Below, piece by piece: positions 5,506 to 63,311 of a DNA stretch of 64,000 nucleotides (positions within the stretch are counted from its first letter, which is position 1; each line of letters starts with the position of its first letter). Both the position numbers and the translations under genes were made by a program. Source of the stretch: Candidatus Woesearchaeota archaeon UBA489 (GTDB taxonomy: Archaea > Nanobdellota > Nanobdellia > SCGC-AAA011-G17 > UBA489); contig DAVM01000021.1 in the NCBI GenBank assembly GCA_002505585.1, forward strand, positions 11,660 to 75,659, given 5' to 3'. The notes beneath the pieces were generated by a model. It searched no databases and was not told the DNA's origin. It was given only the letters and a program-made list of their open reading frames with translations.

Positions 5506-5510
5506 AAACA

Positions 5511-41371: not shown

Positions 41372-41386
41372 AGAGGTGGAAAGAAC

Positions 41387-42251: not shown

Positions 42252-42339
42252 AGGGGTCATAGCATAATCCGGTTAGTGTTGCCGGCTCCAAAAAATTTAG
42301 GAGTCACCGGTAGATCCAGGTTCGAATCCTGGTGACCCC
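42252..42339 (+). tRNA. tRNA-Trp (anticodon CCA) with a ~14-nt intron at the canonical 37/38 position.
   Basis: Acceptor GGGGTCA / TGACCCC with discriminator A. T-arm CCAGG-TTCGAAT-CCTGG. Anticodon stem GCCGG / CCGGT. Loop CTCCAAA. Intron at 42291-42304. Confidence 0.8.
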
Positions 42340-42391
42340 ATATAATCCTTCTAGAAATATTTATAAACCTACACTATTCCTTAGTAGTCCT

Positions 42392-42979
42392 ATGAAACTT
42401 ATTTGGGGGCTTATGAATTTAACTATTCTTTTAGCCCTAGCTGTACAAGCAGAACCTTTAACTTCAAAACCCATCTACAAAGTTGAGGTAAAAGAACTCT
42501 TGATAAACCACTATGATTTACAGTGTAAAGAGAGTATTACTTCAATAATCAATCTCCATAATAGAGGTAATTTAGATGCAACAGTATCAGTAGAACTAGT
42601 CAATAGTAAGCTTGGAGTAGCAGAAGTCTCTCCTAGTATTAGAATTCAAGCAGGAAGACAACAAGGCATAATTGTACCTTTCAAAATAGCAAAAGATGTA
42701 TATGGAGCTTATGAATTTGAGATTAGACTCTATACAGAAGAAGGGATCAAAAGATTGTTTCAAACTGTCCATTTTCAAGAGTGTGATAAACCAAAAATCA
42801 CTTCTTTGATTAGAGATAGTAAACCATTACAACAAACTCAACAAGAGGAAGAAGAGAAACAATCTCCTCCATTACCTTTCCATTTCTTAATAGGGATAGG
42901 TCTTTTAGGAGTGCTAGCACTACTTTCAGCACTCTTTATCATCCATTCTTCACTTCAAAAAACACAACCAGAAACATGA
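42392..42979 (+). CDS. Secreted protein with a signal peptide and a C-terminal TM anchor.
   Basis: The listed start at 42332 lies inside the tRNA, so the start is assigned to MKLIWGLMNLTILLALAVQA. C-terminal helix IGIGLLGVLALLSALFII. Confidence 0.5.
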   Translation: MKLIWGLMNLTILLALAVQAEPLTSKPIYKVEVKELLINHYDLQCKESITSIINLHNRGNLDATVSVELVNSKLGVAEVSPSIRIQAGRQQGIIVPFKIAKDVYGAYEFEIRLYTEEGIKRLFQTVHFQECDKPKITSLIRDSKPLQQTQQEEEEKQSPPLPFHFLIGIGLLGVLALLSALFIIHSSLQKTQPET

Positions 42980-43084
42980 AAACGTTACTACCGAAAGGTT
43001 TATATAGAGGTCATAACTCTTTGATAACAACAATCTTTAAATAGAAAATAAAATATATATGTTACATGGGGGCTCGAAATAACA

Positions 43085-44389
43085 ATGAAATATAAAACGT
43101 CAGGAACACTCTTATTATTCTTAATAGCATTACTAACTTTTACTGGCATTGCACAAGCAGCACCAGAATATGAAATTAAAAAAGTACTTGTAGACAATTT
43201 AGACATCACAGGTAGCTCATTCGATGTAAAAAGAGACAGTGATGTACTCATAGAAGTATGGATAGAAGGAACTGGAAACGAAACAATACCTGACGTAAGA
43301 GCAGAAGCAAAAGTATTAGGTTATGAATTTGGAGTAATTTCAGACTTAACAAACATCTTTGCAATAGAAGGTGGAAGATTATATAAAAAAACATTAAGAT
43401 TACACATACCAAAAGACATCGATGCATCTGAAGAATACACACTAAGAATCGAAGTATCAGATAAAAAAGAAGAAATTAAAAAAGAACTTAACTTCCACAT
43501 CGATGAACAAAGACACAGCTTGAACATTTTTGACATAGTACTAAACCCAAGTTCAAGAATACAAGCAGGACAAGCATTGTTCCCATCAGTAGTAGTTGAA
43601 AACTTAGGGGCAATGAAAGAAGAAAACATCAAAGTAACTGTAAGCGTTCCAGAACTAGGAATAACAGCAGTAAACTACTTAGATGAACTTATTACTCAAA
43701 GACAAGAAGAAAGAAGAACATTCAACTTAAGAGAAGAAAGCTCAGAAAGAATAGACTTCTTGCTAAGAGTACCTGAAGATACAAAAACTGGAGAATACAC
43801 ACTCAAAATAGAAGTACTCTACAACAGAGGACATAGTGTATTAAGCTCAACAAGAACCTTTGCAGTACAAGGTGTAGAAACAAAAGAAGTAGATACAGTC
43901 ATTAACATAGACAGCACTTCAAAAAGTACAGAAGCAGGAAAAGAAGTAATCTACAAAGTAATGTTTGCTAACTTAGGAACAGAAAGAGGCATATACTCAG
44001 TACAAGTGGACGGCGTAAGCTGGGCACAACACAGAGTAGAACCTGGATTTGTAACAGTAGCACCTGATGCAACAGCAGAAGCATTAATCTACATAACACC
44101 AAACAGTAATGTAGAAGCTAAAAACTATGTATCAGTAGTACGAGTAATGTTAGGAAGAGAAATCATAAACGAATTCACTCTAAACACAAACGTACAAAGT
44201 GCAACTGAAGAACAAGCAACAACAAGTGCATTAAAAACAACACTAGCAGTAGTATTTAGTGTGTTAGTAATAGCACTAATCATTTTGGGATTAGTTATAG
44301 CGTTCAGAAAAATCGGAAAATCTGATGAAGATGAACCAGTAACAAACATTCCAGAAGGACAAACATACTATTACCATCCTAGAAGGTAA
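43085..44389 (+). CDS. Cell-surface protein with a signal peptide, beta-rich ectodomain and a C-terminal TM anchor.
   Basis: Signal peptide LLLFLIALLTFTGIAQA. C-terminal LAVVFSVLVIALIILGLVIAF followed by an acidic tail. Confidence 0.6.
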   Translation: MKYKTSGTLLLFLIALLTFTGIAQAAPEYEIKKVLVDNLDITGSSFDVKRDSDVLIEVWIEGTGNETIPDVRAEAKVLGYEFGVISDLTNIFAIEGGRLYKKTLRLHIPKDIDASEEYTLRIEVSDKKEEIKKELNFHIDEQRHSLNIFDIVLNPSSRIQAGQALFPSVVVENLGAMKEENIKVTVSVPELGITAVNYLDELITQRQEERRTFNLREESSERIDFLLRVPEDTKTGEYTLKIEVLYNRGHSVLSSTRTFAVQGVETKEVDTVINIDSTSKSTEAGKEVIYKVMFANLGTERGIYSVQVDGVSWAQHRVEPGFVTVAPDATAEALIYITPNSNVEAKNYVSVVRVMLGREIINEFTLNTNVQSATEEQATTSALKTTLAVVFSVLVIALIILGLVIAFRKIGKSDEDEPVTNIPEGQTYYYHPRR

Positions 44390-44569
44390 TAGAACCCACT
44401 TTTCTTCTTATTTTCTTATTTTTTAATCCGCAATCTTTTCAGAGAATTCTGAGATAGCTTTATAAATAAGCAAGCCTTATAGCTTTTATAAGTTATTTGG
44501 GGGAATACTTACCTAGAATGAGTGCACAAACAAAACACATTAAATATTGAGAAAATAAGAAGTAAAACA

Positions 44570-44983
44570 ATGAAAAAAAGAACAATTATAGGAATTATAG
44601 CAGTTTTTGTACTTCTTTTGCTTAGTACAAGCCTTGCACAAGAAGATCTGTTACCTATGATGATTGAAGAGGAAGTACTAGAAGATAATACTAATATTCA
44701 GGAAGAACTTATTGAAGAACCAGTAGAAGAACTACAAGAACTTATTGTAGAAGAAGAGCTTCCAGAGACTAAAAAAGAAGAACCAATACAAATAGCTCCA
44801 ATTCCAATTATAACAGGAAAAGTAGTCCAACCAGAACCAAAAAATGCTGAAGAAGTATTCCTAGCAGCAATTTTAGAGCAACTAACACCAGCAGAACAAG
44901 AGAAAGTTAAAGCAAGATTAAAGCATTTTGAGAAGAGAAATCCATTAGAATATATGATGGAAATGGCATTACAAGTAAATTAA
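44570..44983 (+). CDS. Secreted acidic (Glu-rich) protein.
   Basis: Signal peptide, then a region of more than 30% Glu (EEEVLEDNTNIQEELIEEPVEELQELIVEEELPE). Confidence 0.45.
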   Translation: MKKRTIIGIIAVFVLLLLSTSLAQEDLLPMMIEEEVLEDNTNIQEELIEEPVEELQELIVEEELPETKKEEPIQIAPIPIITGKVVQPEPKNAEEVFLAAILEQLTPAEQEKVKARLKHFEKRNPLEYMMEMALQVN

Positions 44984-45113
44984 CTTACCAAAAACTTCTT
45001 TTTTTGAACCATAATATTTATAAAGTGTAGTGCAACCTTTAATGTAACTAAAAGGGGTAATTCTTACTAACAATAGTGAGAAAAAAATTAGATAAAAAGG
45101 GGTTAGAAGCTCA

Positions 45114-45287
45114 TTGTATAAAAAATACATTCTAAAAAGAGGAAAGAGAATAGGACCATATTTCTACACTAGTGCTCGCTTAAAAGATGGCAGAGTAAAA
45201 ACAGTCTACTTAGGTAGTAATGAAAAACTTGCACGTCAGAAAGAAAGAACACAACAACTCATTAAGGTGGTGAAAAGGAAAGGATGA
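45114..45287 (+). CDS. Putative small basic protein (TTG start) translationally coupled to the giant gene by an ATGA overlap.
   Basis: 57 codons, K/R-rich (LYKKYILKRGKRIGPYFY...). The stop TGA overlaps the ATG of the 2355-aa ORF. Confidence 0.3.
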   Translation: MYKKYILKRGKRIGPYFYTSARLKDGRVKTVYLGSNEKLARQKERTQQLIKVVKRKG

Positions 45288-48200
45288 AACACCAACTTAC
45301 ACTTATTGATAAAGAAAGAGAATTACGAAGCCTTATCTTACAAGCAGAAACACACAAAAAACAAATAAGAAGAGTAATCAGACAAATAACAGAACACTAT
45401 AAACACGGAAAAATAACACATGAAGAATACAAAACAAGAATACAAGAAGCATTTGGTCAACAAACACCAACAGCACTCATAAAACATTATGATACTTGTA
45501 TAAAACAATACCAACAAGAACTAAAACAAAACAAACAACTAACAACCCAACAAAAAACAAATACACCACTTTACTTAATTGCTTTCCTCTTACTCATAGG
45601 AGGAATAGTTTTCTCCAACACAGACTTCACAGGATTCTTCATAGCAGAAGGAACACCACACAAAACAACAGTAAACCTGATAACAAACGAAGACATAACA
45701 TACACCTTACCTCAACCAATAGAAGGAAAAATTACAGCATTAGCAATTAGTGGAACAATAGAAGGAGATGGAGAAGTACAAATTTATTTAGAAAATATAG
45801 ACAACCTCCTTTATGACAGTACAAAAAAAGAAGCAAAAAAAGGACTCTTTGGCAAACTCACAGGATTAGTAACTGCACCAACAAACCAAACACCCCAAAA
45901 TAAACTACAACTCTATGACGAAGATAGAAATATTCTAGAAGCAGAAGAAACAACCACAAAAACAAGCTTAGTAACAAAACCAACAACCATACTACAAATA
46001 CAAAAAATAACATTCCAAAACTTAAAAGGGAAAAAACTAGGCATTAGCACCAAAGCAAGAGGAATAGTAGCACCACAAGGAAAGAAATTCAACACTATTT
46101 ATTCCTTTGACACAACAGAACTCACCTTTGACGAAGCAACAGCACAAATTACAGCAACAGGCAACGAACTCTACAAATGTAATATCTGGGACTTTAGTCT
46201 AAGCATATGTTTAAGCACATGGGAACAATTTACAACAATTGAACAAACAAAAGCATATAAAATCACCTTACCAAAAGGAACAATAGCATTCGCAGAAGCA
46301 AATACCATAAATACAACAACTAGCAAAAAACCACAAACATTCCCACTCCAACCACTAACAGTAGCAGTTAAACAATTCAACCTAGGAGAAATAGCAAAAT
46401 TTGACATACTAGTCAAAAACACACAAAAGACCACTACACCTGCACAAGCACAAATACAATTAACAAACAACAAAACAACCATTGCAAACTTCAACAGCAC
46501 CAAAGAAAACATAACACAAAACCAACCAAAAGCACTATTAGCGTATTGGGACACAACAAACACAGAATCAGGAACTTATGAAGGAACACTTAAACTAATA
46601 GCAAATAAAGAAACTAAAGAATATCCAATCAAAGTAATAGTAACAGAAAAAACAATACACACAGAAATCATAGGCATAACAGGAAAAGTAGTTACTAAAA
46701 CACAAGAACAACCAAAGAAAAACCAAAAAAAGAAAACATTTATAGCAGAATGCAAAGATGCATGCACACTTGAAGGACTTAACAAAACACCACACAAACT
46801 TATAATTATTATCAAAGATGCACTACTCAACCTTACTAATATAGATTACACTATAAAAACAAATGGAACAAATATAACAATAAACAAAACAAAAATAAAA
46901 TTCCAATTAGACCAAAAACAACACAAGAAAAAAATAAAAAAACTCAAAATAGACAAAACAAAAATAACTCACAGAGATGAAAAGAAGAAAATACACAAAA
47001 TCCAAAGACATGCATCAAAAAACATTACAGATGGAGGCCTTGGTTGGGAAAGAGAATGCATTGATAGCATTTGCAAACACACCATCTATCAGAATGTTGA
47101 ACATTATCATAAAGAAGACAGTAATTTTGGCGCAATAAAAAACGCATTAACAGATCAAAATTGTGCAATAGACGAAGAATTATGTATTAAGAGCAAAAAA
47201 CACAAAATAAGCTTCAAAGAAAAAGCAACACAAGAAGCAACAATTAACCTAACAATAAACAATGCCACCATCTCCTTTACACCACTACAACTAAGACACA
47301 GTATGGGAGAAGAACAAACAATCCTAAGTAGTGCAAATCCAGTCACAGGAGAAGGAACAGACAATATCTTCACCTATAATAATATTTTCGGCCAAGGAAT
47401 CAATATGAAACTAACTTATTTAGCAGACCAAATAAAAGAAGAAATTATACTTACAGACAATAGTTTCCTAGGAAATATACCCCTAACAAATACAACTAAC
47501 ACAACAATAACTATAGACTATATAGTAACAAAATCACCAGAACTACAATGGAAAATAGGAAATGTAATACAAACACCACTTGCAATAGATGAACAAATAC
47601 AAACACCACAAGCACTACAACTTCAAGACACAAAAGGAACAAAATTTATCCTTCCAAAACCAATAGCATATAGTGGAAAAGAAACACAACCACTTAGTTA
47701 TAGTCTTACACAAACAGACAAACAAGAAATACTAAGTATAGAAATACCACTCACTTACTTACAAACAACACCTTATCCAATAATCATAGATCCAACAATA
47801 GTACTTGATTATGCTAGTGTTCTCTTTGACGGTTATGTAACATCTGGTATCTCAGGTGGAAGTTACACAAGAGCAAGTAGTCCGGACCCAGTCTTTGTAG
47901 GCCAAACAGATCAAGGAGGTCCATTTGATACTTACAGAGCAGACATAGACTGGGATATCTCATCAGTACCAACAAACGCATTTGTTACACAACTCACATT
48001 AGACCTCTACGTAAAACAAATAGGTAACCCAGATACCACAATTTATGTAAACCAAATGAGTGGCAACAGCACAACCTATCCAGATGATGATTCAGGAAAC
48101 ACTGATTTTTATACTGATATGCAAGACACCAATTATGCTTCTATAATGTTAGGTGGTGCACAAGCATATGAAGCAATAGATTTCACAGCAGACCAATCAT

Positions 48201-51200: not shown

Positions 51201-52351
51201 ATCAAGCAATACTTTATAACAGCTATGCATTGAGATTTTATTATCCAAACTTAGCCAACACAACAGCAGTAGTAACAACACCAAACCCAGCAAACACAAC
51301 AGACACACTCAACTGTACTTTTACAGTAACAGACATAGACACAGAAGAAGGACTGTCAGCAAACATAACATTCTACAACAGAAGCACAGACGGCATACAC
51401 TTTACAGTTTATGAAAGCTATAACATCTCAGTAACAAACGGAACAGAATTCACTCAAGATATGACAGCAACATCACAAGTCAAAAATGAAGTGTGGAAAT
51501 GTGGCATAGTACCTTTTGATGGAATTAAAGACGGAACACCAAGAAACTCTTCAACAGTTACTATAGTTAACAGTGTACCAGGAACACCAACACTAGGAGG
51601 ACCAGTAGATAATTATCAAACAACAGAGTTAGCACTAAACTTTAATTGGACTAACATTACAGATGCAGATGGGGATCCAGTAAACTACACTTTTAACTTA
51701 ACTTGTTATTCAACAGCAGGAGGAGGCTGTACAGCACCAGGAGATGATAGAATCTTTAATATAACAACAAATAGCACATCATCAGATGGAGATTTAAACT
51801 TCAGAATTGATGACGGATTTTATTATAACTGGACAGTTCTAGCACATGATGGAACAAACCAAAGCACTTATGCACAAGCAAGAACCTTTAATATAAGTGT
51901 CTTAGTAGCCATATCTTTCATTAGCGGAAGTAATGTAGACTTCCACACTTTAGGATTAGGACTAAGTAATCGAACTATAGAATCAGTAGAAGATTCAGGA
52001 CCAAACGCATTTGAATTACAGAATGATGGAAATAGTTTCATAGAAGTAAACATAACAGCAATAGGCAGTGATCTTTTTTCAGCATCACCAATACCATCAG
52101 ATGCATTCCTTTTCAAAGGAACTGTACCAATAGCAGCACCAATACCAACCCCAATTAACCAAACAAGATCAATTTCAAGTTATACTAATGTAACTAGAAC
52201 AAACCAAACAGTACTAGCAGGATTCAATTACTCTGATGCAACAGACGAAGCACTCGTTCACGTTAAAATCACAGTACCATTAGATGAACCAAGTGGCACT
52301 AAAGGAGCAACATTAGTACTAACAGGATATTACTTTGGAGGAAGAACTTAA
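45284..52351 (+). CDS. Giant (2355 aa) N-terminally anchored surface protein with two LamG-like (concanavalin-type) domains, internal repeats and very many N-glycosylation sequons.
   Basis: Cytoplasmic N-terminal ~95 aa then TM PLYLIAFLLLIGGIVF. Two LamG_3-like segments (LLLHFDNRSEFGEN... and ALLYHFDNRSEFGEH...IMWLNPND). Repeated YYW[YF]VNATD. Dozens of N-x-S/T sites. Confidence 0.8.
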   Translation: MKHQLTLIDKERELRSLILQAETHKKQIRRVIRQITEHYKHGKITHEEYKTRIQEAFGQQTPTALIKHYDTCIKQYQQELKQNKQLTTQQKTNTPLYLIAFLLLIGGIVFSNTDFTGFFIAEGTPHKTTVNLITNEDITYTLPQPIEGKITALAISGTIEGDGEVQIYLENIDNLLYDSTKKEAKKGLFGKLTGLVTAPTNQTPQNKLQLYDEDRNILEAEETTTKTSLVTKPTTILQIQKITFQNLKGKKLGISTKARGIVAPQGKKFNTIYSFDTTELTFDEATAQITATGNELYKCNIWDFSLSICLSTWEQFTTIEQTKAYKITLPKGTIAFAEANTINTTTSKKPQTFPLQPLTVAVKQFNLGEIAKFDILVKNTQKTTTPAQAQIQLTNNKTTIANFNSTKENITQNQPKALLAYWDTTNTESGTYEGTLKLIANKETKEYPIKVIVTEKTIHTEIIGITGKVVTKTQEQPKKNQKKKTFIAECKDACTLEGLNKTPHKLIIIIKDALLNLTNIDYTIKTNGTNITINKTKIKFQLDQKQHKKKIKKLKIDKTKITHRDEKKKIHKIQRHASKNITDGGLGWERECIDSICKHTIYQNVEHYHKEDSNFGAIKNALTDQNCAIDEELCIKSKKHKISFKEKATQEATINLTINNATISFTPLQLRHSMGEEQTILSSANPVTGEGTDNIFTYNNIFGQGINMKLTYLADQIKEEIILTDNSFLGNIPLTNTTNTTITIDYIVTKSPELQWKIGNVIQTPLAIDEQIQTPQALQLQDTKGTKFILPKPIAYSGKETQPLSYSLTQTDKQEILSIEIPLTYLQTTPYPIIIDPTIVLDYASVLFDGYVTSGISGGSYTRASSPDPVFVGQTDQGGPFDTYRADIDWDISSVPTNAFVTQLTLDLYVKQIGNPDTTIYVNQMSGNSTTYPDDDSGNTDFYTDMQDTNYASIMLGGAQAYEAIDFTADQSLLDFHNQLENKSTWFSVGLSTDESGSGGATPSKFTGATSGNPDEIPQLTIVYDLPPPTITLNAPANNSYYSAFINETLNATIKDNEPTIQEVIYYGGTTLPPRAEDILFIQYNVTNGTQLAVNWTTEVYKADGDTQLLLHFDNRSEFGENDTIVFDFSNQTNNGTITDAGGLLNLQETDGKLGGAVNFQPIPGDGGKSNITFGDQDELIGANHTYMMWLKIKNQAEAATIFTKYNADENEGMKVNYSNAGATLGITTDTKMVEIKNFFDIDQYTHLAITIDTVGEMKVYKNGIFNSSTTGHEITPNTIPFDIVFTDESTPIPIDVADLDEFVILNRTLSAWEILDAYRLKGGVYYWYVNATDASGKPTGMNMSEIRKLTINHPPEITLNLPLNNTLFAGVGAIILNSTIIERELDTVIVEIFGGNTTTPDMEDLLYKNISVANGTTILYNWTAPILKALPETALLYHFDNRSEFGEHATSIYDFTGLGHTGTIQGDGLINLSNEIFAGHLELDGTGDRVLVSNCGYECIQLRDATFIMWLNPNDESTIGGLTGSLATVASLGFGIYKNTDDLAVVGDGNVGVADVDFFTGETGNWIHLAATTLANGTSKIYKNGVLQETGVINAIFNVFIFGWSYWVGEVDAVQASFLFDGSIDEFTIINRTLSDAEIQERYQLGNGTYYWFVNATDNFSIGHNTQSQTRQFVISDTVRITAAEINESTPVESNTFVKVNASIESEVNTLNTTYVTATPPLSNEFNITLHQNGNEHFNVTVKLNESGNWTFTFHANDSEGNEATAVKAIEQSATGYPYITVAWNGSDSFGYRGKDIHAISGPSYFYTNISRPEIALGLSDDGLSVATPIGFDFKFYNNLSATHIRICNNGFISFDVSIDSCPFNNVALGTDGDPEEIAAVFWGDLAEGGDLYNETRGTAPNRIFIVQWDRNFFGGGSTDRIDAQIVLYENSSDIQFNYLDTVSSTGGSLGAGASIGIENRGSDFFIQRSLNQAILYNSYALRFYYPNLANTTAVVTTPNPANTTDTLNCTFTVTDIDTEEGLSANITFYNRSTDGIHFTVYESYNISVTNGTEFTQDMTATSQVKNEVWKCGIVPFDGIKDGTPRNSSTVTIVNSVPGTPTLGGPVDNYQTTELALNFNWTNITDADGDPVNYTFNLTCYSTAGGGCTAPGDDRIFNITTNSTSSDGDLNFRIDDGFYYNWTVLAHDGTNQSTYAQARTFNISVLVAISFISGSNVDFHTLGLGLSNRTIESVEDSGPNAFELQNDGNSFIEVNITAIGSDLFSASPIPSDAFLFKGTVPIAAPIPTPINQTRSISSYTNVTRTNQTVLAGFNYSDATDEALVHVKITVPLDEPSGTKGATLVLTGYYFGGRT

Positions 52352-52831
52352 ATGAAAGATCATCACAAAATAAAAGGATTCTGGATATTAGTAGCACTAA
52401 CTTTAGTAAGCCTCCTCTTCACCAATGTACCACTAACGCCAAAATATGGAATGGAAACAACAAACACAAAAATAACTTTTAGAAGTATAGGAACAGCACA
52501 AAACATACTTTTAGATGACAACCCAAGCTTCACAACACCAACATTACTTCCACTAAGAGAACCAATACCATTAGAACCAGGAACTTATTATTGGAAAACA
52601 ACAGGTATGAGTTTAGTTACAACATTCACCATACTTTCACACACAGCACTAACAATAGAACAAAAAGAAGACAACTATGAAGTTAGCAACAAAGGAAATG
52701 TTCCTCTAGATATAGAAACAAAACAAGAAGGATTACTTACAGGATCATTTGTAATAAACACAAAAGGAAAACTACAACTACAACTAGACAAAGAAACAGA
52801 AATAAAAGGAGTGCAAAGAAATGAAAAATAA
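52352..52831 (+). CDS. Membrane-anchored small protein.
   Basis: N-terminal TM GFWILVALTLVSLLF. Beta-rich. Confidence 0.45.
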   Translation: MKDHHKIKGFWILVALTLVSLLFTNVPLTPKYGMETTNTKITFRSIGTAQNILLDDNPSFTTPTLLPLREPIPLEPGTYYWKTTGMSLVTTFTILSHTALTIEQKEDNYEVSNKGNVPLDIETKQEGLLTGSFVINTKGKLQLQLDKETEIKGVQRNEK

Positions 52832-54062
52832 ACAATTCTTACAACTCCTAACACTCTTCTTAACACTACTTTTAGTGACAACAACAGTAACAGCACTAGG
52901 AATTAGTCCAGGAAGAATACAAGCAGACTTTACACCAGGATTAGAAGTAACCAAGAAACTAACAATTTATAATACAGAACACAAAGATAAAGACATTATT
53001 CTTTATGCAGAAGGAGACTTAGGAGAATACATCAAACTCTCAGAAACACAATTCCACTTCACAGCAGAAGAAAGTGAAAAAGAAATAACTTATACAGTAA
53101 GACTACCAAACCACTTAGGAGCACCAGGAACACATAGAGGAAGAATAGTAGCAAGAGAATTAGGAACCAAACAAGAAGGAGAAATAGTAGTCCAAGCACT
53201 AGTCGCTGTAGCATCAGCATTTGACGTGCAAGTACCTTACCCAGGAAAATATTTAACAACACAATTCTATGTAGCAACAACAAAAGCACAAGAACCAATA
53301 CCACTCTTAGTGCAAGCACATAACTTAGGAACACAAGACATCATACATGCAAAAACAATCATAACAATCACAGATAATAAAGAAAAAATTGTAACAACAA
53401 TAGAAAGCGATGAAACACTAATCAAAGCACGAAAAAGAGTAGAACTACTAAGTTATTGGGAAACAAATTTGAGTTATGGACAATACACAGCACACGCAAC
53501 AACACACTATGACGGAGCAAAAACAGAAACAACAAAACAAAGATTCCAAATAGGAGAATTTATACTAGAACCAATAGACATCTCAGTAAAAAACTTCAAA
53601 CTAGGAGAAGTAGCAAAATTCAACATCTTAGTAAAAAATAAAGCAGAACAAAAAATTGAAAAAGCACTAGCACAAATACTTTTCCATGACAAAGAAGAGA
53701 AAAATATAGCAGACTTTACAAGTGCAGACACAACAATCAACACACTAGCAACAAAAGCACTCTTAGCTTACTGGGATACAGAAAACATAGAACAAGGAAC
53801 TTACGAAGGAAAACTCATCTTAAGAGCAGATGAAGCAACATCAGAAAATAGGTTAAGAACGACAATAACAGAAGAAGAGATAATAACAGAACTCTTAGAC
53901 ATCACAGGGAAGAGCATATCCACACAAATAACAAGCGCAAAAGTCCTTAGTAAACAAGCCTCAATAGCTTTATTAACTATAGTTATTATTTTAGGAAATG
54001 TCATAGGATGGTTTGTGTACTTTAAACGAAAAGACAAGGGAAAAATCATGGATAATTTTTAA
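52821..54062 (+). CDS. Surface protein paralog with a signal peptide and a C-terminal anchor; it shares a ~110-aa module with the giant protein.
   Basis: Signal peptide LLTLFLTLLLVTTTVTA. C-terminal ALLTIVIILGNVIGWFVYF. Shared module VKNFKLGEVAKFNILVKN...KALLAYWDTENIEQGTYEGKL. Confidence 0.6.
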   Translation: MKNKQFLQLLTLFLTLLLVTTTVTALGISPGRIQADFTPGLEVTKKLTIYNTEHKDKDIILYAEGDLGEYIKLSETQFHFTAEESEKEITYTVRLPNHLGAPGTHRGRIVARELGTKQEGEIVVQALVAVASAFDVQVPYPGKYLTTQFYVATTKAQEPIPLLVQAHNLGTQDIIHAKTIITITDNKEKIVTTIESDETLIKARKRVELLSYWETNLSYGQYTAHATTHYDGAKTETTKQRFQIGEFILEPIDISVKNFKLGEVAKFNILVKNKAEQKIEKALAQILFHDKEEKNIADFTSADTTINTLATKALLAYWDTENIEQGTYEGKLILRADEATSENRLRTTITEEEIITELLDITGKSISTQITSAKVLSKQASIALLTIVIILGNVIGWFVYFKRKDKGKIMDNF

Positions 54063-54148
54063 ACAAAAGCATAATCTGAAAAAGCAAAAAGCTTAAAAAA
54101 GAATAAAATGATACATATACACAAATTAAAAGGTATTAAGGGATCTTT

Positions 54149-54382
54149 GTGAAAAAACTTATGAGCACAGAAAAAGAAATAAAAAAAGAAGTGTTTGCCA
54201 TTACCCTTATTGTAATTATATTTATCTCCCTCATAGGGACTTTCACTATCTTAAGCGTTACAGAAAAATTCAAACCAAAAACTACAGAAAAAGTAACTAG
54301 TTCTCCAGGAGTATCACTGACAATCTTAGAAGAACCAAAAACTGAACAAAAAGAAGGTGAGACAACAAGTGGAGATAAGTGA
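54149..54382 (+). CDS. Small N-anchored protein.
   Basis: 77-aa ORF with TM VFAITLIVIIFISLIGTFTIL. Confidence 0.3.
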   Translation: MKKLMSTEKEIKKEVFAITLIVIIFISLIGTFTILSVTEKFKPKTTEKVTSSPGVSLTILEEPKTEQKEGETTSGDK

Positions 54383-55004
54383 CCAAACACTAGTAATACT
54401 TACAGTCATAGCACTCATAACAACAATAGGAGGAACAGTTTTAATTCTCCAAAAATTAGGACCTGATATACCAGCACTCACAGGATTAGCATCCGCAGTA
54501 ACAGGAACAGTAAATGTAAGCATAGATTCAACAGTGAGCATAATTTTAAACGTAGACCACATAAACTTTAGTGGAGGATCAGTAGTATCAGGATTATCAA
54601 TCACAGAATTAAACACAACAGGAGCAGATGGAGGAGGATCAAATCCCTCAACATTTGCAGATCCAGGAGACTTCTTAATAGAGAATAATGGAAATGTAGA
54701 TGTTAATTTAACTATCAATGGTACACCAGCAGCAAACTGGATAGGAGGAACAAGTCCAACTTATAGATTTTCCCATAATGCACCAGGCACAGATGATGGA
54801 TGTGCCAACAACAGAACAAATACAGCACCAACAACTTTAAATGCAGATCTGCTAGAATTTTGTATAAATTTAACATTCACAGATGCAGCAGACACAACAA
54901 ATATTAGTATCTACTTAGGAATCCCATCAGATATACCAGCAGGATCCATAACAGATCCAGCAGTACTGATTACAGCAGCACAAGCCACAAATTTTGTAGG
55001 CTAG
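54357..55004 (+). CDS. N-anchored Gly/Thr/Asn-rich extracellular protein; candidate pilin-like or adhesin subunit.
   Basis: GTG start. TM TLVILTVIALITTIGGTVLIL. G/T/N/S/D-rich ectodomain with NxS/T sequons. Confidence 0.4.
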   Translation: MRQQVEISDQTLVILTVIALITTIGGTVLILQKLGPDIPALTGLASAVTGTVNVSIDSTVSIILNVDHINFSGGSVVSGLSITELNTTGADGGGSNPSTFADPGDFLIENNGNVDVNLTINGTPAANWIGGTSPTYRFSHNAPGTDDGCANNRTNTAPTTLNADLLEFCINLTFTDAADTTNISIYLGIPSDIPAGSITDPAVLITAAQATNFVG

Positions 55005-55066
55005 TCTTTTAAACTCTCTATTTTTTAAAGAAATTAGTAAAAAAGCTTAAATACCTAAAAAGAGTT

Positions 55067-56215
55067 ATGAATTCCATGGGAAAAAGGTGGTTATGGTTAG
55101 TATTTCTTCTACTTCTACCACTTAGTGTGCAAGCAATAAGCTTATCACCAGCACAACAAGAAATTAATTTTCAACCAAACCTAGAAGAAAATCATATAAT
55201 AAAAGTAGGTAATCCTGGAAAAAGAGAAAGCAAAATTATTTTAGGATTTGAAGGAGAATTAGCACAATATATAGAATTTAAAGAATCAGCAGTAATCCTT
55301 CCTCCAAATGGAGCACACCAATTCACTTTTACTCTTAAATTTCCAGAGAACATAGCAAAACCAGGAAGACAATTAGTTAAGATTCATGCGACAGAAGAAC
55401 CATTCGGCATTAGCGAAGGCATACTTCCAAGAACAAGTGTTACAGCACTTTTATGGATTAATGTACCTTATACTGGAAAGTATGCAGAACTAACTGTAAC
55501 TACAAAAAATGTTAATACAGGAGAACCAGTACCCTTTACTATATTAATGGAAAACTTAGGAATAGAAGCCATAACAAATGCAATTACAACACTTAACATC
55601 TATAATATTCATGAAATACTTGTTGAAACACTTACAACTACACCAAGTGCTATAAAAGGATTATCATCACAAGAAAAACTATTACACTTTCCAACAGAAG
55701 ACCAAGAACCAGGAGATTACAAAGTTATAGCAGTACTAGATTATGACGGAAAATTAAGCAAAGCACAAGAGTTAGAGTTTCTCATTGGCACACTCTATGT
55801 GGATATAAGAAATTATACAAAATATTTTAAAACAGATACAGTAAATCAATTTGATATAGAAGTAACAAGCAGATGGAATTCACCAGTGCAACACCTACAT
55901 GGAGAAATACAGATTCATCAAAAGGGGAAACCAATAAGTGGTTTATTAAAAACACCCTCAGTAGCTTTACAACCATGGGAAACAAAAACTTTAACCACCT
56001 TTTGGGACACACAAGGACTAGAACCAGGAGACTACACAGCAACCATCACACTTCATTACCAAGACAAAACAACCACAAAAACAGTAGAAGTAACAATTGC
56101 TAAAACATTCGAATTGAACACAACAATTATTTTAACAACAATCATTATCCTCATACTCCTCATAGACTTCACCATATGGCTAGTACACAAAAGGAGAACA
56201 GATGAAGAAGACTAA
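55067..56215 (+). CDS. Surface protein paralog with a signal peptide and a C-terminal anchor.
   Basis: Signal peptide WLWLVFLLLLPLSVQA. N-terminal half is homologous to the 413-aa protein. C-terminal TM IILTTIIILILLIDFTIWL. Confidence 0.6.
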   Translation: MNSMGKRWLWLVFLLLLPLSVQAISLSPAQQEINFQPNLEENHIIKVGNPGKRESKIILGFEGELAQYIEFKESAVILPPNGAHQFTFTLKFPENIAKPGRQLVKIHATEEPFGISEGILPRTSVTALLWINVPYTGKYAELTVTTKNVNTGEPVPFTILMENLGIEAITNAITTLNIYNIHEILVETLTTTPSAIKGLSSQEKLLHFPTEDQEPGDYKVIAVLDYDGKLSKAQELEFLIGTLYVDIRNYTKYFKTDTVNQFDIEVTSRWNSPVQHLHGEIQIHQKGKPISGLLKTPSVALQPWETKTLTTFWDTQGLEPGDYTATITLHYQDKTTTKTVEVTIAKTFELNTTIILTTIIILILLIDFTIWLVHKRRTDEED

Positions 56216-56603
56216 TATTATTTTATTAAACATAGTTATTTTTCTCTTTATTATTTTAGTTATTAGCCTCCTCTTTCAAATCATCAACCCCTACACTATA
56301 AAAAAAGTCCCTATATTTCTAGAAGTAGGAAGTACTGTAGGCATAGATGTTAATACAACTGCAATCACTTTTAGTGTAGTAAGACCAGGAGCAAGAGCAG
56401 AAAGAACTTTAGTTTTCAGATCAAATGTTACAGAAACCATCACGCTTTATGTAAAAGACATACCTTTTGTTTCTGTAGCAAATGAAGAATTTATTGTCAG
56501 ACCTAATGAAACTGTAATAAATGTGATTATAGCAGCACCACCAAAAAATACTCCAAGCGGAAACTATACAGGAACACTTCTCATAGTAAGCAAAGAACAA
56601 TGA
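56202..56603 (+). CDS. Small N-anchored beta-rich protein.
   Basis: TM IILLNIVIFLFIILVISLLF followed by a beta-rich domain. Confidence 0.4.
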   Translation: MKKTNIILLNIVIFLFIILVISLLFQIINPYTIKKVPIFLEVGSTVGIDVNTTAITFSVVRPGARAERTLVFRSNVTETITLYVKDIPFVSVANEEFIVRPNETVINVIIAAPPKNTPSGNYTGTLLIVSKEQ

Positions 56604-57577
56604 ACAAAAGAAAAAACTACGCATTAGCTGTACTTCTCTTAACCTTTATCTTAGTAGGATTGTTTGGTTTTGATTATGTAATTACACAAATAATCATGAC
56701 AACAGGACAAGCATCAAATGATCCAGGAACAGTAAGCTTAACAATTCTAGGAGCAAACGAAACAACAAATGACACACCAACACCAACTCCAGGACCACAA
56801 AAGAGTGGCAGAGGAATAAGAAAAGAAGTATCAGTAAGCATAAGCACGATTGACAAAATAAATATTCAATCATTACACATCAAAGCAAATGCCAAAGAAG
56901 AAAAACAAGTAACACTAAAACTCAAAAATACTGGAAGCATAACATTAAACCTAAAATTAAAAAATACCATCCCCATACTTTCCTTGAATAAAAAAACCAT
57001 AACACTTCGTCCAGAAGAAGAAACAATACTTATTTTAACCATCTACACAGAAAACATAGACACTTATACAGGACTCCTCACCTTTGAAGATGACTATTTA
57101 CAAACCCAACTACCCACAATCATAATAGTAAATCCAAAAGAAATAAACTACTTAGTTGCTGTTACCATCCCACCACCATTTAAGACAGTACAACCAGGAA
57201 AAGAAGTATTTGCAAAAATCAGAGTAACCAAACTCACAAGAGGATCACTAGTCCTTCATTACTTATTAAAAGACATGCGAGATAGAATCATACACGAAGA
57301 ATATGAAAGAATAGGAGTTAAAAACGAACTAGCAATAGATAAAACCATTAAACTACCAGACAACACAGAACTAGGAGAACATGCATTTATAGCAACAGTA
57401 GACTACCAAGGAACAAGTCTCTCAGACGCAGACACTTTTGTTGTAGCACAAGAAACACCATTACAAAAAGAACAACCACAACAAACAAAAAAAGACAACA
57501 AAATCATACTCTTACTCTTATTAATATTCCTTATTTTAATAGCACAATTATTATTACACAAAATAAGAAAAAACTAA
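56600..57577 (+). CDS. Secreted protein with an N-terminal TM/signal and a C-terminal anchor.
   Basis: N-terminal LAVLLLTFILVGLFGF. C-terminal IILLLLLIFLILIAQLLL followed by KIRKN. Confidence 0.5.
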   Translation: MNKRKNYALAVLLLTFILVGLFGFDYVITQIIMTTGQASNDPGTVSLTILGANETTNDTPTPTPGPQKSGRGIRKEVSVSISTIDKINIQSLHIKANAKEEKQVTLKLKNTGSITLNLKLKNTIPILSLNKKTITLRPEEETILILTIYTENIDTYTGLLTFEDDYLQTQLPTIIIVNPKEINYLVAVTIPPPFKTVQPGKEVFAKIRVTKLTRGSLVLHYLLKDMRDRIIHEEYERIGVKNELAIDKTIKLPDNTELGEHAFIATVDYQGTSLSDADTFVVAQETPLQKEQPQQTKKDNKIILLLLLIFLILIAQLLLHKIRKN

Positions 57578-61011: not shown

Positions 61012-61079
61012 TTCCCTTAGAATTGGCAGTTTTGAGCTTTATAAAGGTTACGAGGTAATTTGAGAACAACAAAAATTAG

Positions 61080-61730: not shown

Positions 61731-61769
61731 AATTATTATTAGTTCTTTAGTAATTTATAAACATATGGC

Positions 61770-62696: not shown

Positions 62697-62716
62697 TTTA
62701 GTAAATTAGCTCTTTT

Positions 62717-62902: not shown

Positions 62903-63078
62903 AATCTTTATTTGATTTTTTCTGATTTATATATTCTATGTAAACCTCTGTAAACCTTTCGAAAAGCCCCGGAAATTTTCTGGGAAAAGGTGAAGAAGGC
63001 ATATAAAAACAATACACTTCTTTAGAGAATACCAAAAACTTATAAAGGAATTAATATCATAAAATATTAAATAATAGT

Positions 63079-63309: not shown

Positions 63310-63311
63310 CA

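What the first reader, a model, noticed from the sequence alone, without database searches (positions are those of the whole stretch)
42392..57577. 15-kb same-strand surface-protein island: a giant LamG-containing N-anchored protein plus paralogous anchored proteins sharing a private module
Twelve consecutive plus-strand genes (42392-57577) encode only secreted or membrane-anchored proteins. The centrepiece is a 2355-aa protein (45284-52351) with a cytoplasmic N-tail, one TM helix, two LamG_3-like lectin-type domains (…LLYHFDNRSEFGE…IMWLNPND…), repeated YYW[YF]VNATD blocks and dozens of N-x-S/T sequons. Two downstream proteins (52821-54062 and 55067-56215) carry a ~110-aa module that also occurs near residues 350-460 of the giant protein (VK.F.LGE.AKF.ILVKN … KALLAYWDT.N.E.GTYEG.L.L). 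They are also paralogous to each other in their N-terminal halves. Small N-anchored G/T/N-rich proteins that could be pilin-like subunits are interleaved. This looks like a dedicated, possibly co-assembling surface or attachment apparatus, as expected for a host-associated small-genome archaeon, rather than scattered surface genes. A small basic ORF is ATGA-coupled to the giant gene.
Basis: partly seen in the sequence, partly recalled or inferred. Interest (0 to 1): 0.75.

Follow-up and report, generated by a model that had tools for sequence, protein, structure and literature searches.

The report
Conserved DPANN surface adhesin operon
The giant lectin-bearing protein and the seven genes after it form an operon conserved across many Woese-/Pacearchaeota-type (DPANN) archaea; it most likely builds a membrane-anchored attachment structure with an exchangeable "head", and its last four genes occur as two very different alleles in the same ocean population.

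Summary
There are twelve consecutive + strand genes at 42392-57577. The 2355-aa N-anchored protein has two LamG_3 domains and 83 N-glycosylation sequons against about 32 expected. A module is shared with 52821-54062 and, more weakly, 55067-56215.

The module is not private. Gene g07 (52821-54062) belongs to a family with more than 2,000 50%-identity clusters, and the module is its third Ig domain (CARDB/WxLIP_HBD-like).

New findings:
- Genes g04 to g11 (45114-57577) keep the same order in dozens of species-level Nanoarchaeota MAGs: [variable head, 308 to over 3100 aa] - g06 - g07 - g07b - g08 - g09 - g10 - g11.
- Every head ends in a domain homologous to the small protein g08.
- g07b is only a TM helix plus the N-terminal strand of g08.
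- g07 and g09 are three-Ig, C-terminally anchored proteins of PapD/ASH/WxLIP type.
- The small basic ORF g04 is a split-off cytoplasmic N-domain of the head.
- Positions 54474-57542 (g08 to g11) exist as two haplotypes only 78% identical, between identical flanks.

Best reading (inferred, not shown): an usher-free adhesin complex or fibre assembled by beta-strand complementation. It is analogous to bacterial WxL clusters and CPR Pam pili. I found no paper that describes it.

The parts
42392..42979 (+). g01: 195-aa protein with a signal peptide, one Ig-like domain and a C-terminal TM. It is a neighbour, not part of the conserved operon.
   Evidence: Hydrophobic segments at 1-21 and 166-184. Weak Cep192_D3 (PapD-like) hit, E 0.005. 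No homologue in 83 related loci.
43085..44389 (+). g02: 434-aa protein with a signal peptide, several CARDB/NPCBM_assoc-type Ig domains and a C-terminal TM. It is S-layer-like and a neighbour, not part of the core.
   Evidence: NCBIfam PACE-CTERM-PROT 'putative S-layer protein', E 3.5e-18, 65.6 bits, below the cut-off of 110. NPCBM_assoc 31.6 bits. Only one homologue in the related loci, in L022.
44570..44983 (+). g03: 137-aa N-anchored acidic protein. Its C-terminal motif is shared with the gene upstream of the giant in the closest relative, L007.
   Evidence: Gene call in L001. TM at 21-39 of the longer ORF. L007 'up128' matches the C-terminus at E 7e-4.
45114..45287 (+). g04: 57-aa basic cytoplasmic protein, ATGA-coupled to the giant gene. 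It is a split-off N-terminal domain of head proteins.
   Evidence: tblastn finds 70% identity directly upstream of the L007 giant, with 17 hits in related loci. The same sequence ('VYKKYI.R.GKKFGPYYFKS.R..DG.V.SVYLG') is fused in front of the TM of the head proteins in L016, L030, L049, L061, L064, L065, L070 and L082.
45284..52351 (+). g05, the giant 'head' protein, 2355 aa. It has a cytoplasmic tail (1-91), a TM (92-110) and a large glycosylated ectodomain.
   Evidence: Its orthologue in L007 is 38% identical over 1745 aa.
46337..46723 (+). The shared module in the giant (residues 352-480). It corresponds to Ig domain 3 plus the juxtamembrane linker of the g07/g09 family.
   Evidence: g07-family HMM E 1.7e-32. 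blastp E 8e-25. It maps to Ig3 (249-359) of the AF2 model of g07.
48311..50398 (+). Tandem duplicated unit [Big_7-type Ig + LamG_3] x2 (residues 1010-1705). This is the predicted lectin, or ligand-binding, part.
   Evidence: Internal repeat 1010-1376 against 1340-1705, E 1e-12 to 1e-14. LamG_3 in 2 stretches, the best at 1486-1641. Big_7 25.6 bits on the isolated segment.
51320..52333 (+). Conserved head C-terminal region (residues 2013-2350). It is an FN3-like domain (paralogous to g06) followed by a g08-like domain (2204-2348, nt 51893-52327).
   Evidence: headC HMM E 6.8e-92; g08 HMM against giant 2204-2348 E 4.3e-18. hhalign headC~g08 99.7%, E 1.9e-26; headC~g06 97.8%, E 8e-13. Alignment A1.
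52352..52831 (+). g06: 159 aa, with an N-terminal TM, an FN3-like domain ('PGTYYWK') and a small beta domain.
   Evidence: Orthologues in L008 and L009. Found in 42 of 58 loci. hhalign to the penultimate domain of the head.
52821..54062 (+). g07: 413 aa, with a signal peptide, three Ig-like sandwiches, a disordered linker and a C-terminal TM helix. It is the candidate membrane-tethered holder or chaperone.
   Evidence: AF2 pLDDT 90. Foldseek finds ASH/hydin-type domains at E 7e-11 and WxLIP 9i1y_A at 1.3e-8. The family has 2210 representatives.
54161..54382 (+). g07b: 73 aa, consisting of an N-terminal TM, a variable linker and one conserved beta-strand ('G.VSL.I').
   Evidence: Consensus of 51 orthologues. 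hhalign to the N-terminal 59 residues of g08, 97.3%, E 2e-11. The g07b-g08 pair is tandemly duplicated in 8 loci.
54369..55004 (+). g08: about 211 aa, with an N-terminal TM, an 'LTG' motif, an N-terminal strand 'TGTVNVSI' and an Ig-like body. It is the small subunit whose body equals the C-terminal domain of the head.
   Evidence: Alignment A1. AF2 pLDDT 77. Weak matches to CU pilins, TasA-like proteins, DUF1102, CsuA/B and ASH domains. 8 sequons against 3.8 expected.
55067..56215 (+). g09: 382 aa, a paralogue of g07 (three Ig domains plus a C-terminal TM).
   Evidence: blastp E 1e-31. hhalign 100%. PF11797 WxLIP_HBD E 6.5e-4 at 294-347.
56202..56603 (+). g10: 133 aa, with an N-terminal TM and one PapD/ASH-like Ig domain.
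   Evidence: Weak PG_0320-like_C and Cep192_D4 hits. hhalign to Ig1 of g07/g09 at 92% and to g11 at 97%.
56600..57577 (+). g11: 325 aa, with an N-terminal TM, a g08-type strand ('PGTVSLTI'), a Pro/Thr linker, two Ig domains and a C-terminal TM.
   Evidence: Cep192_D3 E 1.1e-5. hhalign of the N-terminus to g07b/g08 at 94%, and of the body to g07/g09 at 95-97.5%.
54474..57542 (.). Dimorphic allelic cassette. It covers the extracellular part of g08 plus g09, g10 and g11.
   Evidence: Two haplotypes are about 78% identical in nucleotides, with no intermediates among 10 contigs. Flanks are about 100% identical. dS 0.45-0.86 and dN/dS 0.23-0.32 inside, against dS 0 in the giant and g07.

Best explanation
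Genes g04 to g11 (45114-57577) are one conserved operon of Woese-/Pacearchaeota-type DPANN archaea. I propose that it builds a membrane-anchored adhesion structure held together by beta-strand (donor-strand) complementation, with no usher and no ATPase.

Proposed roles, all inferred:
- The giant is the exchangeable 'head'. Its two Ig+LamG units bind a glycan or surface ligand on a partner cell. It joins the rest of the structure through its C-terminal g08-like domain.
- g08 is the small repeating or bridging subunit. Its N-terminal strand (G-T-V-x-L-T-I, hydrophobic at alternate positions) is offered to the Ig-like body of the next g08-type domain.
- g07 and g09 are two paralogous, C-terminally anchored three-Ig proteins of PapD/ASH/WxLIP type. 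They hold or chaperone these domains at the membrane.
- g07b (TM plus the strand alone) and g11 (strand + two Ig + C-terminal TM) prime and anchor the assembly.
- g04 and the giant's N-tail form a cytoplasmic part.

What is shown: the conserved gene order, the domain-sharing network, the folds, the LamG domains, the sequon enrichment and the allelic cassette. What is inferred: physical assembly, strand insertion, cleavage at the [IL]TG site, and host binding. I put about 0.75 on 'a dedicated co-assembling surface apparatus with a variable head' and about 0.4 on the strand-complementation mechanism as described.
For: Synteny:
- The same order of orthologues occurs in L007, L008 and L009, where g07 is 35-47% identical.
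- In 80 species-level loci, 53 of 58 have a gene ending in the g08-like domain directly upstream of g06/g07. Of 57 loci with enough downstream sequence, g08 is present in 43 and g09 in 41.
- Gene junctions overlap or abut: g04/giant by 4 nt, giant/g06 with no gap, g06/g07 by 11 nt, g07b/g08 by 14 nt, g09/g10 by 14 nt, g10/g11 by 4 nt.

Module sharing:
- headC~g08 99.7%, headC~g06 97.8%, g07b~g08 N-terminus 97.3%, g11 N-terminus~g07b/g08 94%, g07/g09~g11 95-97.5%.

Folds:
- g07 is three Ig sandwiches plus a TM (pLDDT 90). It matches ASH/PapD-like repeats and WxLIP, including the WxLIP:WxL complex 9i25.
- 31 of 79 family members hit PF11797.
- The best structural neighbours of g08, all weak, are largely donor-strand filament subunits: CS20, FimG, PapA, FimA, CsuA/B, TasA-like, DUF1102 tube, CanX, Saci_0406 thread and ABP pilin.
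- The g08 N-terminal strand is not packed into the monomer model.

Heads:
- Head proteins vary from 308 to over 3100 aa. They carry LamG, beta-helix, FG-GAP or S8 peptidase domains but keep the same C-terminal domain.

Precedents with the same parts list:
- WxL clusters have a small domain-only protein, a large protein with the same C-terminal domain, and an Ig-Ig-TM partner that inserts a strand (PMC10599100).
- CPR Pam pili have two TM-anchored PapD-like chaperones, a tip pilin, and an anchor made of an N-terminal strand, two FnIII domains and a TM, with no usher (preprint 10.64898/2026.03.03.709456).
- The TapA strand nucleates TasA (PMC10151520).
Against: - No complex was modelled or observed.
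- There is no sequence-level link to any solved pilin, WxL or WxLIP chain.
- The giant here has its own N-terminal TM anchor and a 91-aa cytoplasmic tail. That fits poorly with a distal tip unless it is cleaved or the structure is a loop or complex rather than a fibre.
- All the 'strand donors' carry an N-terminal TM whose removal is unproven.
- hhalign scores between short TM-containing segments (g07b, g08, g11 N-termini) may be inflated by the TM helices.
- My family HMMs were built from few seeds, so the synteny counts are lower bounds and g11 is poorly detected (9 of 57).
Confidence: 0.4

Rival explanations
1. A static WxL/Csc-type surface complex rather than a fibre. g07 and g09 (WxLIP-like, Ig domains plus a C-terminal TM) each clamp one g08-type domain, either free g08 or the C-terminus of the giant. 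This displays the lectin head on the membrane without any polymerisation.
For: The cluster logic is the same as in Firmicute WxL loci: a small domain-only protein, a large protein with the same C-terminal domain and N-terminal binding domains, and an Ig-Ig-TM partner (PMC10599100). PF11797 is hit in 31 of 79 g07-family members. Foldseek matches WxLIP 9i1y and 9i25. Some genomes hold several loci with different heads (L032 and L078 come from one MAG). The giant's own N-anchor is compatible with a compact complex.
Against: g08 and the head C-terminus have no W-x-L motif and no PF13731 hit, and no WxL chain appears among the structural neighbours. DUF916/PF06030 is not detected in g07 or g09. This model does not explain the strand-only protein g07b or the conserved N-terminal strands.
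Confidence: 0.25
2. S-layer or envelope scaffold of the SlaA/SlaB type. The large glycosylated protein forms the outer canopy, and g07, g09 and g11 are membrane-anchored Ig-rich stalks.
For: The arrangement resembles SlaA/SlaB: a large, heavily N-glycosylated protein (83 sequons) with roughly 400-aa Ig-rich proteins carrying a C-terminal TM. SlaA/SlaB and DPANN S-layer candidates are described in these terms (10.1101/2023.10.27.564410). An S-layer-like gene, g02, lies next door.
Against: Head size ranges from 308 to over 3100 aa, with unrelated domain content (LamG, beta-helix, FG-GAP, S8 peptidase) between species. One genome can hold more than one locus. The head here has its own TM anchor. 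g02, not the giant, is the protein that matches an S-layer model. The sequons are on the giant, g08 and g10 but not on g07, g09 or g11.
Confidence: 0.12
3. There is no physical assembly. The genes encode independently acting surface proteins that arose by local duplication and domain shuffling, and they stay together only for co-regulation.
For: All members are built from a few Ig-type modules, as repeated local duplication would produce. No direct interaction evidence exists.
Against: Order and orthology of seven or eight different families are kept across genomes in which the proteins are only 25-45% identical. The g07/g09 duplication predates these species. The g07b-g08 pair is duplicated as a pair. 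The g04/head relationship shows fission in some genomes and fusion in others. The cassette g08 to g11 is exchanged as a block.
Confidence: 0.1
4. The small N-anchored proteins are type IV pilin-like subunits, assembled by the type IV filament machinery encoded elsewhere in the window.
For: They have N-terminal hydrophobic segments. A T2SSE/PilB-type ATPase gene lies at 3076-4626. g06 in this window begins 'KIKG|FWILVAL'.
Against: The family consensus sequences of g06, g07b, g08 and g10 have no conserved [KR]-[GA] cleavage site before the hydrophobic stretch. There is no ATPase, platform or prepilin peptidase gene in any of the 80 or more clusters. The g08 model is a TM helix, then a linker, then a separate Ig sandwich, and its conserved Gly lies after the TM, not before it.
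Confidence: 0.03

Closest known systems
WxL / Csc cell-surface clusters of Firmicutes (small WxL protein, large WxL protein, WxLIP = DUF916-DUF3324-TM)
   Same: The cluster logic is the same: a small protein that is essentially one domain, a large protein with variable N-terminal binding domains ending in that same domain, and a signal-peptide + Ig + Ig + C-terminal-TM partner reported to insert a strand into it. The membrane-proximal Ig of g07/g09 hits PF11797 in 31 of 79 members. Foldseek matches 9i1y and 9i25. Multiple loci with different heads occur.
   Different: There is no W-x-L motif or PF13731 domain, and no DUF916. g07 has three Ig domains, not two. Archaea have no peptidoglycan to bind. 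This operon has extra members (g04, g06, g07b, g10, g11). The head here has its own N-terminal TM. The organisms are archaeal.
Pam pili of CPR bacteria (preprint 10.64898/2026.03.03.709456) and chaperone-usher pili in general
   Same: The parts list matches: two paralogous PapD-like Ig proteins with a C-terminal TM (PamC/PamD against g07/g09); Ig-like subunits with an extra strand (g08); a tip protein carrying only the acceptor domain (the head C-terminus); an anchor made of an N-terminal strand, two Ig/FnIII domains and a C-terminal TM (PamR against g11); no usher and no ATPase; an ultra-small episymbiont host. In CU pili the adhesin is a lectin domain plus a pilin domain homologous to the rod subunit.
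Giant LamG/ConA-like, heavily N-glycosylated surface proteins of other DPANN (Nanohaloarchaeota, Micrarchaeota Mia14; SPEARE proteins)
   Same: These are large, strain- or organism-specific, lectin-domain proteins with many N-glycosylation sites, proposed to mediate host attachment (PMC7443923; PMC5498576).
   Different: Those reports describe individual proteins, some near type IV pilus loci or on genomic islands. Here the head sits in a fixed operon with seven conserved accessory genes and a conserved C-terminal docking domain. The phylum is different.
TasA/TapA fibres, archaeal bundling pili, Sulfolobus threads (Saci_0406), Pyrodictium cannulae, DUF1102 tubes
Sulfolobales S-layer SlaA/SlaB
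   Same: A large glycosylated outer protein plus a roughly 400-aa Ig-rich stalk with a C-terminal TM, encoded side by side.
   Different: Head length and domain content are highly variable, lectin domains are present, there are many more components, and a genome can carry more than one locus.

Membership tests
Laminin_G_3 / ConA-like lectin superfamily (PF13385), for the giant | Match to the Pfam model above its gathering score | tested here: met
   66 bits against a cut-off of 27.6, E 5.4e-18, two stretches, the best at 1486-1641 covering profile positions 2-151 of 151. The second copy is supported by the internal repeat.
WxLIP (WxL-interacting protein), for g07/g09 | C-terminal HBD domain (DUF3324, PF11797) directly before a C-terminal TM helix | tested here: inconclusive
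   31 of 79 family members hit PF11797 at E<=0.01, the best at 2.7e-7. g09 scores 20.1 bits, below the cut-off of 28.9, and g07 has no hit. The position before the TM is as in WxLIP.
WxLIP (WxL-interacting protein), for g07/g09 | N-terminal PGBD domain (DUF916, PF06030) with the NQIDKxxxYFDLK motif | tested here: not met
   No PF06030 hit in any of the 79 members. The N-terminal motif is 'LGISPGR', not NQIDK.
WxLIP (WxL-interacting protein), for g07/g09 | Encoded next to at least two WxL-domain proteins | tested here: not met
   No WxL domain is present in the operon.
WxL domain (PF13731), for g08 and the head C-terminus | [quoted passage not shown] | tested here: not met
Donor-strand-complemented pilins (chaperone-usher, Pam, TasA-like, threads), for g08 | An Ig-like subunit with an N-terminal extension of alternating hydrophobic residues | tested here: met
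   The conserved strand 'tGtvNlTI' follows the TM in 72 orthologues, and the body is an Ig-like sandwich.
Donor-strand-complemented pilins (chaperone-usher, Pam, TasA-like, threads), for g08 | An incomplete fold completed in trans by the strand of a neighbouring subunit | not testable with these tools
   No multimer prediction was available. In the monomer model, residues 30-57 are not in a sheet, which is compatible but not decisive.
Donor-strand-complemented pilins (chaperone-usher, Pam, TasA-like, threads), for g08 | Significant structural similarity to known pilin subunits | tested here: inconclusive
PapD-like/ASH Ig superfamily, for g07, g09, g10, g11 | A beta-sandwich of PapD/MSP/ASH type | tested here: met
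   The top Foldseek hits of g07 are hydin/CFAP ASH-domain arrays, E 7e-11 to 1e-8. Cep192_D3 scores E 1.1e-5 for g11, with weak Cep192_D3/D4 hits for g01 and g10.
Archaeal type IV pilins, for g06, g07b, g08, g10 | A class III signal peptide (basic residues, then a Gly/Ala cleavage site before the hydrophobic helix) and linkage to an ATPase, platform protein and prepilin peptidase | tested here: not met
   The family consensus sequences lack the site. No such genes occur in the cluster in any locus. The only T2SSE ATPase in the window is about 40 kb away.
PACE-CTERM-PROT putative S-layer protein (NF033506), for g02 | Score above the NCBIfam cut-off | tested here: not met
   65.6 bits against a cut-off of 110 (E 3.5e-18, profile 246-623 of 627). 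It is a relative, not a member.
Makarova arCOG01314-associated predicted secretion system | DUF4350 anchor protein, MoxR ATPase, vWA protein and DUF1616 membrane proteins | tested here: not met
   None of these domains is found in the island proteins. The system is described in PMC5898192.

The most novel reading that the evidence does not exclude
DPANN archaea of the Woese-/Pacearchaeota radiation have their own usher-free, ATPase-free, donor-strand-assembled adhesive fibre. It would be an archaeal counterpart of the Pam pili just described in CPR bacteria. Its parts would be an exchangeable lectin or enzyme 'tip' docked by a pilin-like C-terminal domain, two membrane-tethered PapD-like chaperones, a strand-only primer and a strand-plus-TM anchor. 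Its shaft and anchor genes would be kept as deeply diverged alleles within one population by frequency-dependent selection from viruses or hosts.
Probability: 0.3. Interest if true: 0.85.

Novelty: new variant of a known kind. Interest (0 to 1): 0.68.

Why it matters
No Woese- or Pacearchaeote has been cultured, and how these very common ultra-small archaea hold on to partners is unknown. A single, widely conserved operon with a plug-in head gives a concrete, testable candidate for the attachment organelle.
- The head domains (LamG, beta-helix, FG-GAP, peptidase) could be used to predict what each lineage binds.
- The conserved C-terminal docking domain and the g07 family can serve as markers to find the locus in any MAG.
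- The two-allele cassette gives a population-genetic handle on which parts are exposed to selection.
- If the strand-complementation mechanism holds, episymbionts of both domains (CPR and DPANN) would have arrived at the same minimal way of building adhesive structures on a single membrane.

Tried and rejected
- A word-index homology search with the whole giant returned only itself. Orthologues were found through synteny instead.
- phmmer of the giant, and profiles of the g07 and g08 families, against PDB sequences found nothing meaningful.
- The AFDB50 Foldseek library was not available, so WxL or Pam-type predicted structures could not be compared.
- Type IV pilin reading: rejected.
- WxL membership: rejected.
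- The Makarova arCOG01314 secretion system has a different parts list.
- Mobile island inserted at tRNA-Gly: rejected. The operon keeps the same downstream neighbours (SMC, RNase HII, Dus) in L007, a relative whose g07 is 47% identical, and the composition is unremarkable.
- Pfam on ten sub-segments of the giant added only Big_7. About 60% of the ectodomain stays unassigned.
- The bacterial promoter/terminator scan was uninformative, with fewer sites than in shuffles.
- An exact-match scan of JGI metagenome contigs for the cassette's left flank found nothing. Alleles were recovered through an exact-protein look-up instead.
- The giant's own post-TM segment ('TTVNLIT') looks like the g08 strand by eye, but no HMM detects it, so I do not count it.

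Full report
**1. What is in the sequence**

Between tRNA-Gly (42253-42340) and a convergent SMC gene (57574-61011) lie twelve consecutive + strand ORFs. I label them g01 (42392-42979), g02 (43085-44389), g03 (44570-44983), g04 (45114-45287), the giant g05 (45284-52351), g06 (52352-52831), g07 (52821-54062), g07b (54161-54382), g08 (54369-55004), g09 (55067-56215), g10 (56202-56603) and g11 (56600-57577).

A hydrophobicity scan finds an N-terminal hydrophobic segment in every product except g04. It finds an additional C-terminal TM helix in g01, g02, g07, g09 and g11.

The window comes from a marine (TARA Oceans) DPANN population. The same locus is in MAG GCA_002506165.1 and in several ENA and Logan assemblies. 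Upstream are a GT2 glycosyltransferase and the archaeal OapA-like GTPase, OapB and OapC trio.

**2.

- The giant has one TM (residues 92-110) after a 91-residue helical N-tail.
- Pfam Laminin_G_3 is clearly met: 66 bits against a cut-off of 27.6, in two stretches.
- The two LamG domains sit in a tandem duplication, 1010-1376 against 1340-1705, each preceded by a Big_7-type Ig domain.
- The giant has 83 N-x-S/T sequons against 31.7 +/- 4.9 in shuffles (z = 10.4). g08 and g10 are mildly enriched. g02, g07, g09 and g11 are not.
- The shared module is real. Giant 309-488 matches g07 209-383 at 40% identity, E 8e-25. A family HMM gives E 1.7e-32 for giant 352-480.
- g07 and g09 are full-length paralogues (E 1e-31).
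- The direct match between g09 and the giant is weak (E 0.003). It rests mainly on the paralogy with g07.

**3. The module is not private**

A full phmmer scan of 1.84 billion cluster representatives with g07 gives 2210 hits at E<=1e-3 and 378 at E<=1e-30. Nearly all are about 400 aa and full length.

Named members are 'hypothetical protein' from Nanoarchaeota, Woesearchaeota or Pacearchaeota MAGs.

An AF2 model built on 79 family members (pLDDT 90) shows a signal peptide, three Ig-like sandwiches (26-138, 145-244, 249-359), a disordered linker and a TM helix. The module equals the third, membrane-proximal Ig domain plus the linker.

Thirty-one of 79 members hit PF11797 (WxLIP_HBD) and 13 hit CARDB.

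Foldseek against the PDB finds arrays of ASH/PapD-like domains (hydin and related proteins, E 7e-11). It also finds WxLIP of Enterococcus faecium, including the WxLIP:WxL complex (9i1y and 9i25, about E 1e-8).

**4. The conserved operon**

Look-ups of three distant g07 homologues (35-47% identity) returned the same gene order. A large LamG-containing protein (1173, 2061 and over 3995 aa) is followed by genes of about 160, 400, 70, 200, 380, 140 and 330 aa. blastp shows each position is orthologous.

A scan of one genome per GTDB species found 272 confirmed g07 relatives. The 80 best loci are almost all labelled Woese-, Pace-, Nano- or Aenigmatarchaeota.

Using HMMs built from the first orthologues:
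- 53 of 58 loci with enough upstream DNA have, directly before g06/g07, a gene ending in the same C-terminal domain as the giant.
- g06 is detected in 42 of 58.
- Of 57 loci with enough downstream DNA, g08 is found in 43, g09 in 41, g07b in 31 and g10 in 31.
- g11 is detected in only 9 of the 57 loci (divergent family, small seed alignment).
- These counts are lower bounds.

Head proteins that are complete range from 308 to 3104 aa. A Pfam sample shows LamG_3 in four of nine, plus beta-helix/NosD, FG-GAP, DUF2341 and cadherin-like domains. The L008 head also carries an S8 peptidase.

g01, g02 and g03 are not conserved with the unit. In the nearest relative, L007, the operon keeps the same downstream neighbours (SMC, RNase HII, Dus). 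It is therefore a stable chromosomal feature and not an island inserted at the tRNA.

**5. The domain-sharing network**

Profile-profile comparison of family alignments and HMM searches in the window show the following.
- The last roughly 145 residues of every head (giant 2204-2348) are homologous to the body of g08 (99.7%, E 1.9e-26).
- The head domain before that is homologous to g06 (97.8%).
- g07b is homologous to the first roughly 60 residues of g08 (97.3%). This is a TM helix, a linker and one conserved strand. The consensus of 51 orthologues keeps only 'G.VsL.I' outside the membrane.
- g11 begins with the same segment (94%) and continues as a g07/g09-like pair of Ig domains with a C-terminal TM (95-97.5%).
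- g10 is a TM plus one such Ig domain (92%).
- These scores for short TM-bearing segments may be somewhat inflated by the TM helices.

The g07b-g08 pair is tandemly duplicated as a pair in eight loci.

The small basic ORF g04 is conserved (70% identity in L007). In at least eight other genomes it is fused in frame to the N-terminus of the head, in front of its TM. The ATGA-coupled ORF is therefore a split-off cytoplasmic domain of the giant.

**6. g08**

An AF2 model from 25 homologues (pLDDT 77) shows a TM helix, a low-confidence linker and an Ig-like sandwich. The conserved strand 'TGTVNVSI' is not packed into a sheet.

Foldseek finds nothing below E 1e-3. The best weak hits are chaperone-usher pilins and cannula subunits.

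There is no WxL motif, WxL Pfam hit or WxL structural neighbour. There is no class III signal peptide in the family consensus.

**7. A two-allele cassette**

Comparing the window with other assemblies of the same population gives a sharp contrast.
- 42821-54473 has 8 SNPs and 57600-64000 has none.
- 54474-57542 is only about 78% identical.
- Ten contigs fall into two haplotypes with no intermediates. Both haplotypes occur in run ERR594290.
- Several contigs break exactly at the boundary.
- The left boundary lies in g08 just after its TM, at the 'LTG' motif. The right boundary is at the end of g11.
- Protein identities between haplotypes are g08 84%, g09 69%, g10 65% and g11 76%.
- dS is 0.45-0.86 and dN/dS is 0.23-0.32 inside the cassette. 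The giant and g07 have dS = 0, and the giant has 4 nonsynonymous and 0 synonymous differences.

This is an old, functional, divergent allele block moved by recombination or kept by balancing selection. That pattern is typical of exposed surface structures. Further g08 variants at 95, 74 and 70% identity exist on short contigs.

**8. How it most likely works**

Shown:
- a conserved operon of membrane or secreted Ig-domain proteins;
- a variable head with lectin domains;
- a docking-type C-terminal domain shared between the head and a small subunit;
- two paralogous C-terminally anchored PapD/ASH/WxLIP-like proteins;
- a strand-only protein;
- a protein made of a strand, two Ig domains and a TM.

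Inferred: these parts assemble by beta-strand complementation into a membrane-anchored adhesive complex or short fibre.

Three precedents have matching parts lists.
- Firmicute WxL clusters have a small WxL protein, a large WxL protein and WxLIP, which inserts a hairpin into WxL (PMC10599100).
- The Pam pili of CPR bacteria have two TM-anchored PapD-like chaperones, a tip pilin, and PamR, an anchor made of an N-terminal strand, two FnIII domains and a TM. They have no usher (preprint 10.64898/2026.03.03.709456).
- The N-terminal strand of TapA nucleates TasA (PMC10151520).

I put about 0.75 on 'a dedicated co-assembling surface apparatus with an exchangeable head'. I put about 0.4 on the donor-strand fibre or complex as described, about 0.25 on a static WxL-like clamp, about 0.12 on an S-layer-type scaffold and about 0.1 on no assembly at all.

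Main difficulties:
- The giant (like the heads of L007, L016, L030 and others) has its own N-terminal anchor and cytoplasmic domain. A distal tip would not need these.
- Cleavage of the N-terminal TM segments at the nearly invariant [IL]TG site is untested.

**9. Comparison with what is known, and novelty**

Large, strain-specific, heavily glycosylated LamG/ConA-like proteins have been proposed as host-attachment factors in Nanohaloarchaeota and Micrarchaeota (PMC7443923 and PMC5498576).

Castelle et al. noted 51 Woese/Pace-specific families of unknown function, many membrane-bound or extracellular (PMC8204110).

I found no paper describing this operon, its docking domain or its allelic cassette in five full-text searches that bear on this. 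The library is incomplete, so this is absence of evidence only.

The system fails the tested defining features of WxL and WxLIP membership (no WxL domain, no DUF916). It also fails those of type IV pili. It resembles WxL, Pam and CU systems in logic, not in sequence. I therefore rate it a new variant of a known kind. It would move higher if the donor-strand fibre is confirmed in archaea of this group.

Noticed in passing
window 54474-57542: The extracellular part of g08 plus g09, g10 and g11 exists as two haplotypes about 78% identical in nucleotides. They sit between flanks that are about 100% identical, and both occur in the same sequencing run. dS is 0.45-0.86 and dN/dS is about 0.25-0.3. 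Contigs often break at the boundary.
   Followed up: yes
window 45284-52351 compared with L003: Between the two haplotype backgrounds the giant differs by 4 nonsynonymous and 0 synonymous substitutions in 2355 codons. The numbers are small, but this may indicate selection linked to the cassette.
   Followed up: partly
window 40739-42211: An OapA-like GTPase, OapB (PF09846) and OapC (PF09845), the 'origin-associated proteins', lie directly upstream of the tRNA-Gly. A replication origin may be nearby.
   Followed up: no
window 42253-42340: The tRNA-Gly(GCC) is 88 nt long, longer than a standard tRNA, which suggests an archaeal intron. The longest ORF for g01 (GTG at 42332) would overlap it, so the ATG at 42392 is the likelier start.
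   Followed up: partly
window 24695-26503 (-): A NifU-like Fe-S scaffold gene is interrupted by an intein with a LAGLIDADG homing endonuclease domain.
   Followed up: no
window 529-6485: A separate gene run includes a T2SSE/PilB-type ATPase at 3076-4626 and may be a type IV filament locus. It is about 40 kb from the island and not linked to it in related genomes.
   Followed up: no
window 29951-31882 (-): Another 643-aa Ig-domain protein (weak MG2 and Big_13 hits). It does not match any of the operon family HMMs.
   Followed up: partly
g08 residue about 39; g11 about 35; giant about 114 and about 476; g07 about 365; head proteins of L011, L031, L069, L082 and others: A recurrent juxtamembrane motif [IL]-T-G followed by an aromatic or aliphatic residue. 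It occurs after N-terminal TM helices, before the C-terminal TM of g07, and inside the giant after the g07-like module. It could be a processing site or a structural motif.
   Followed up: partly
L008 14586-15692; L074: Downstream of the operon in one Woesearchaeote lies a 368-aa LamG protein with a typical class III (type IV pilin-like) signal peptide ('KRGLSGVVVTLLMITLSIAAI'). Lectin domains are therefore also mounted on true pilin-type anchors in these genomes.
   Followed up: no
L031, L050, L051 (about 15950-16110); L082 (16554-16667): Further copies of the g04-type basic domain lie downstream of the operon in several genomes. They probably head additional large anchored proteins.
   Followed up: no
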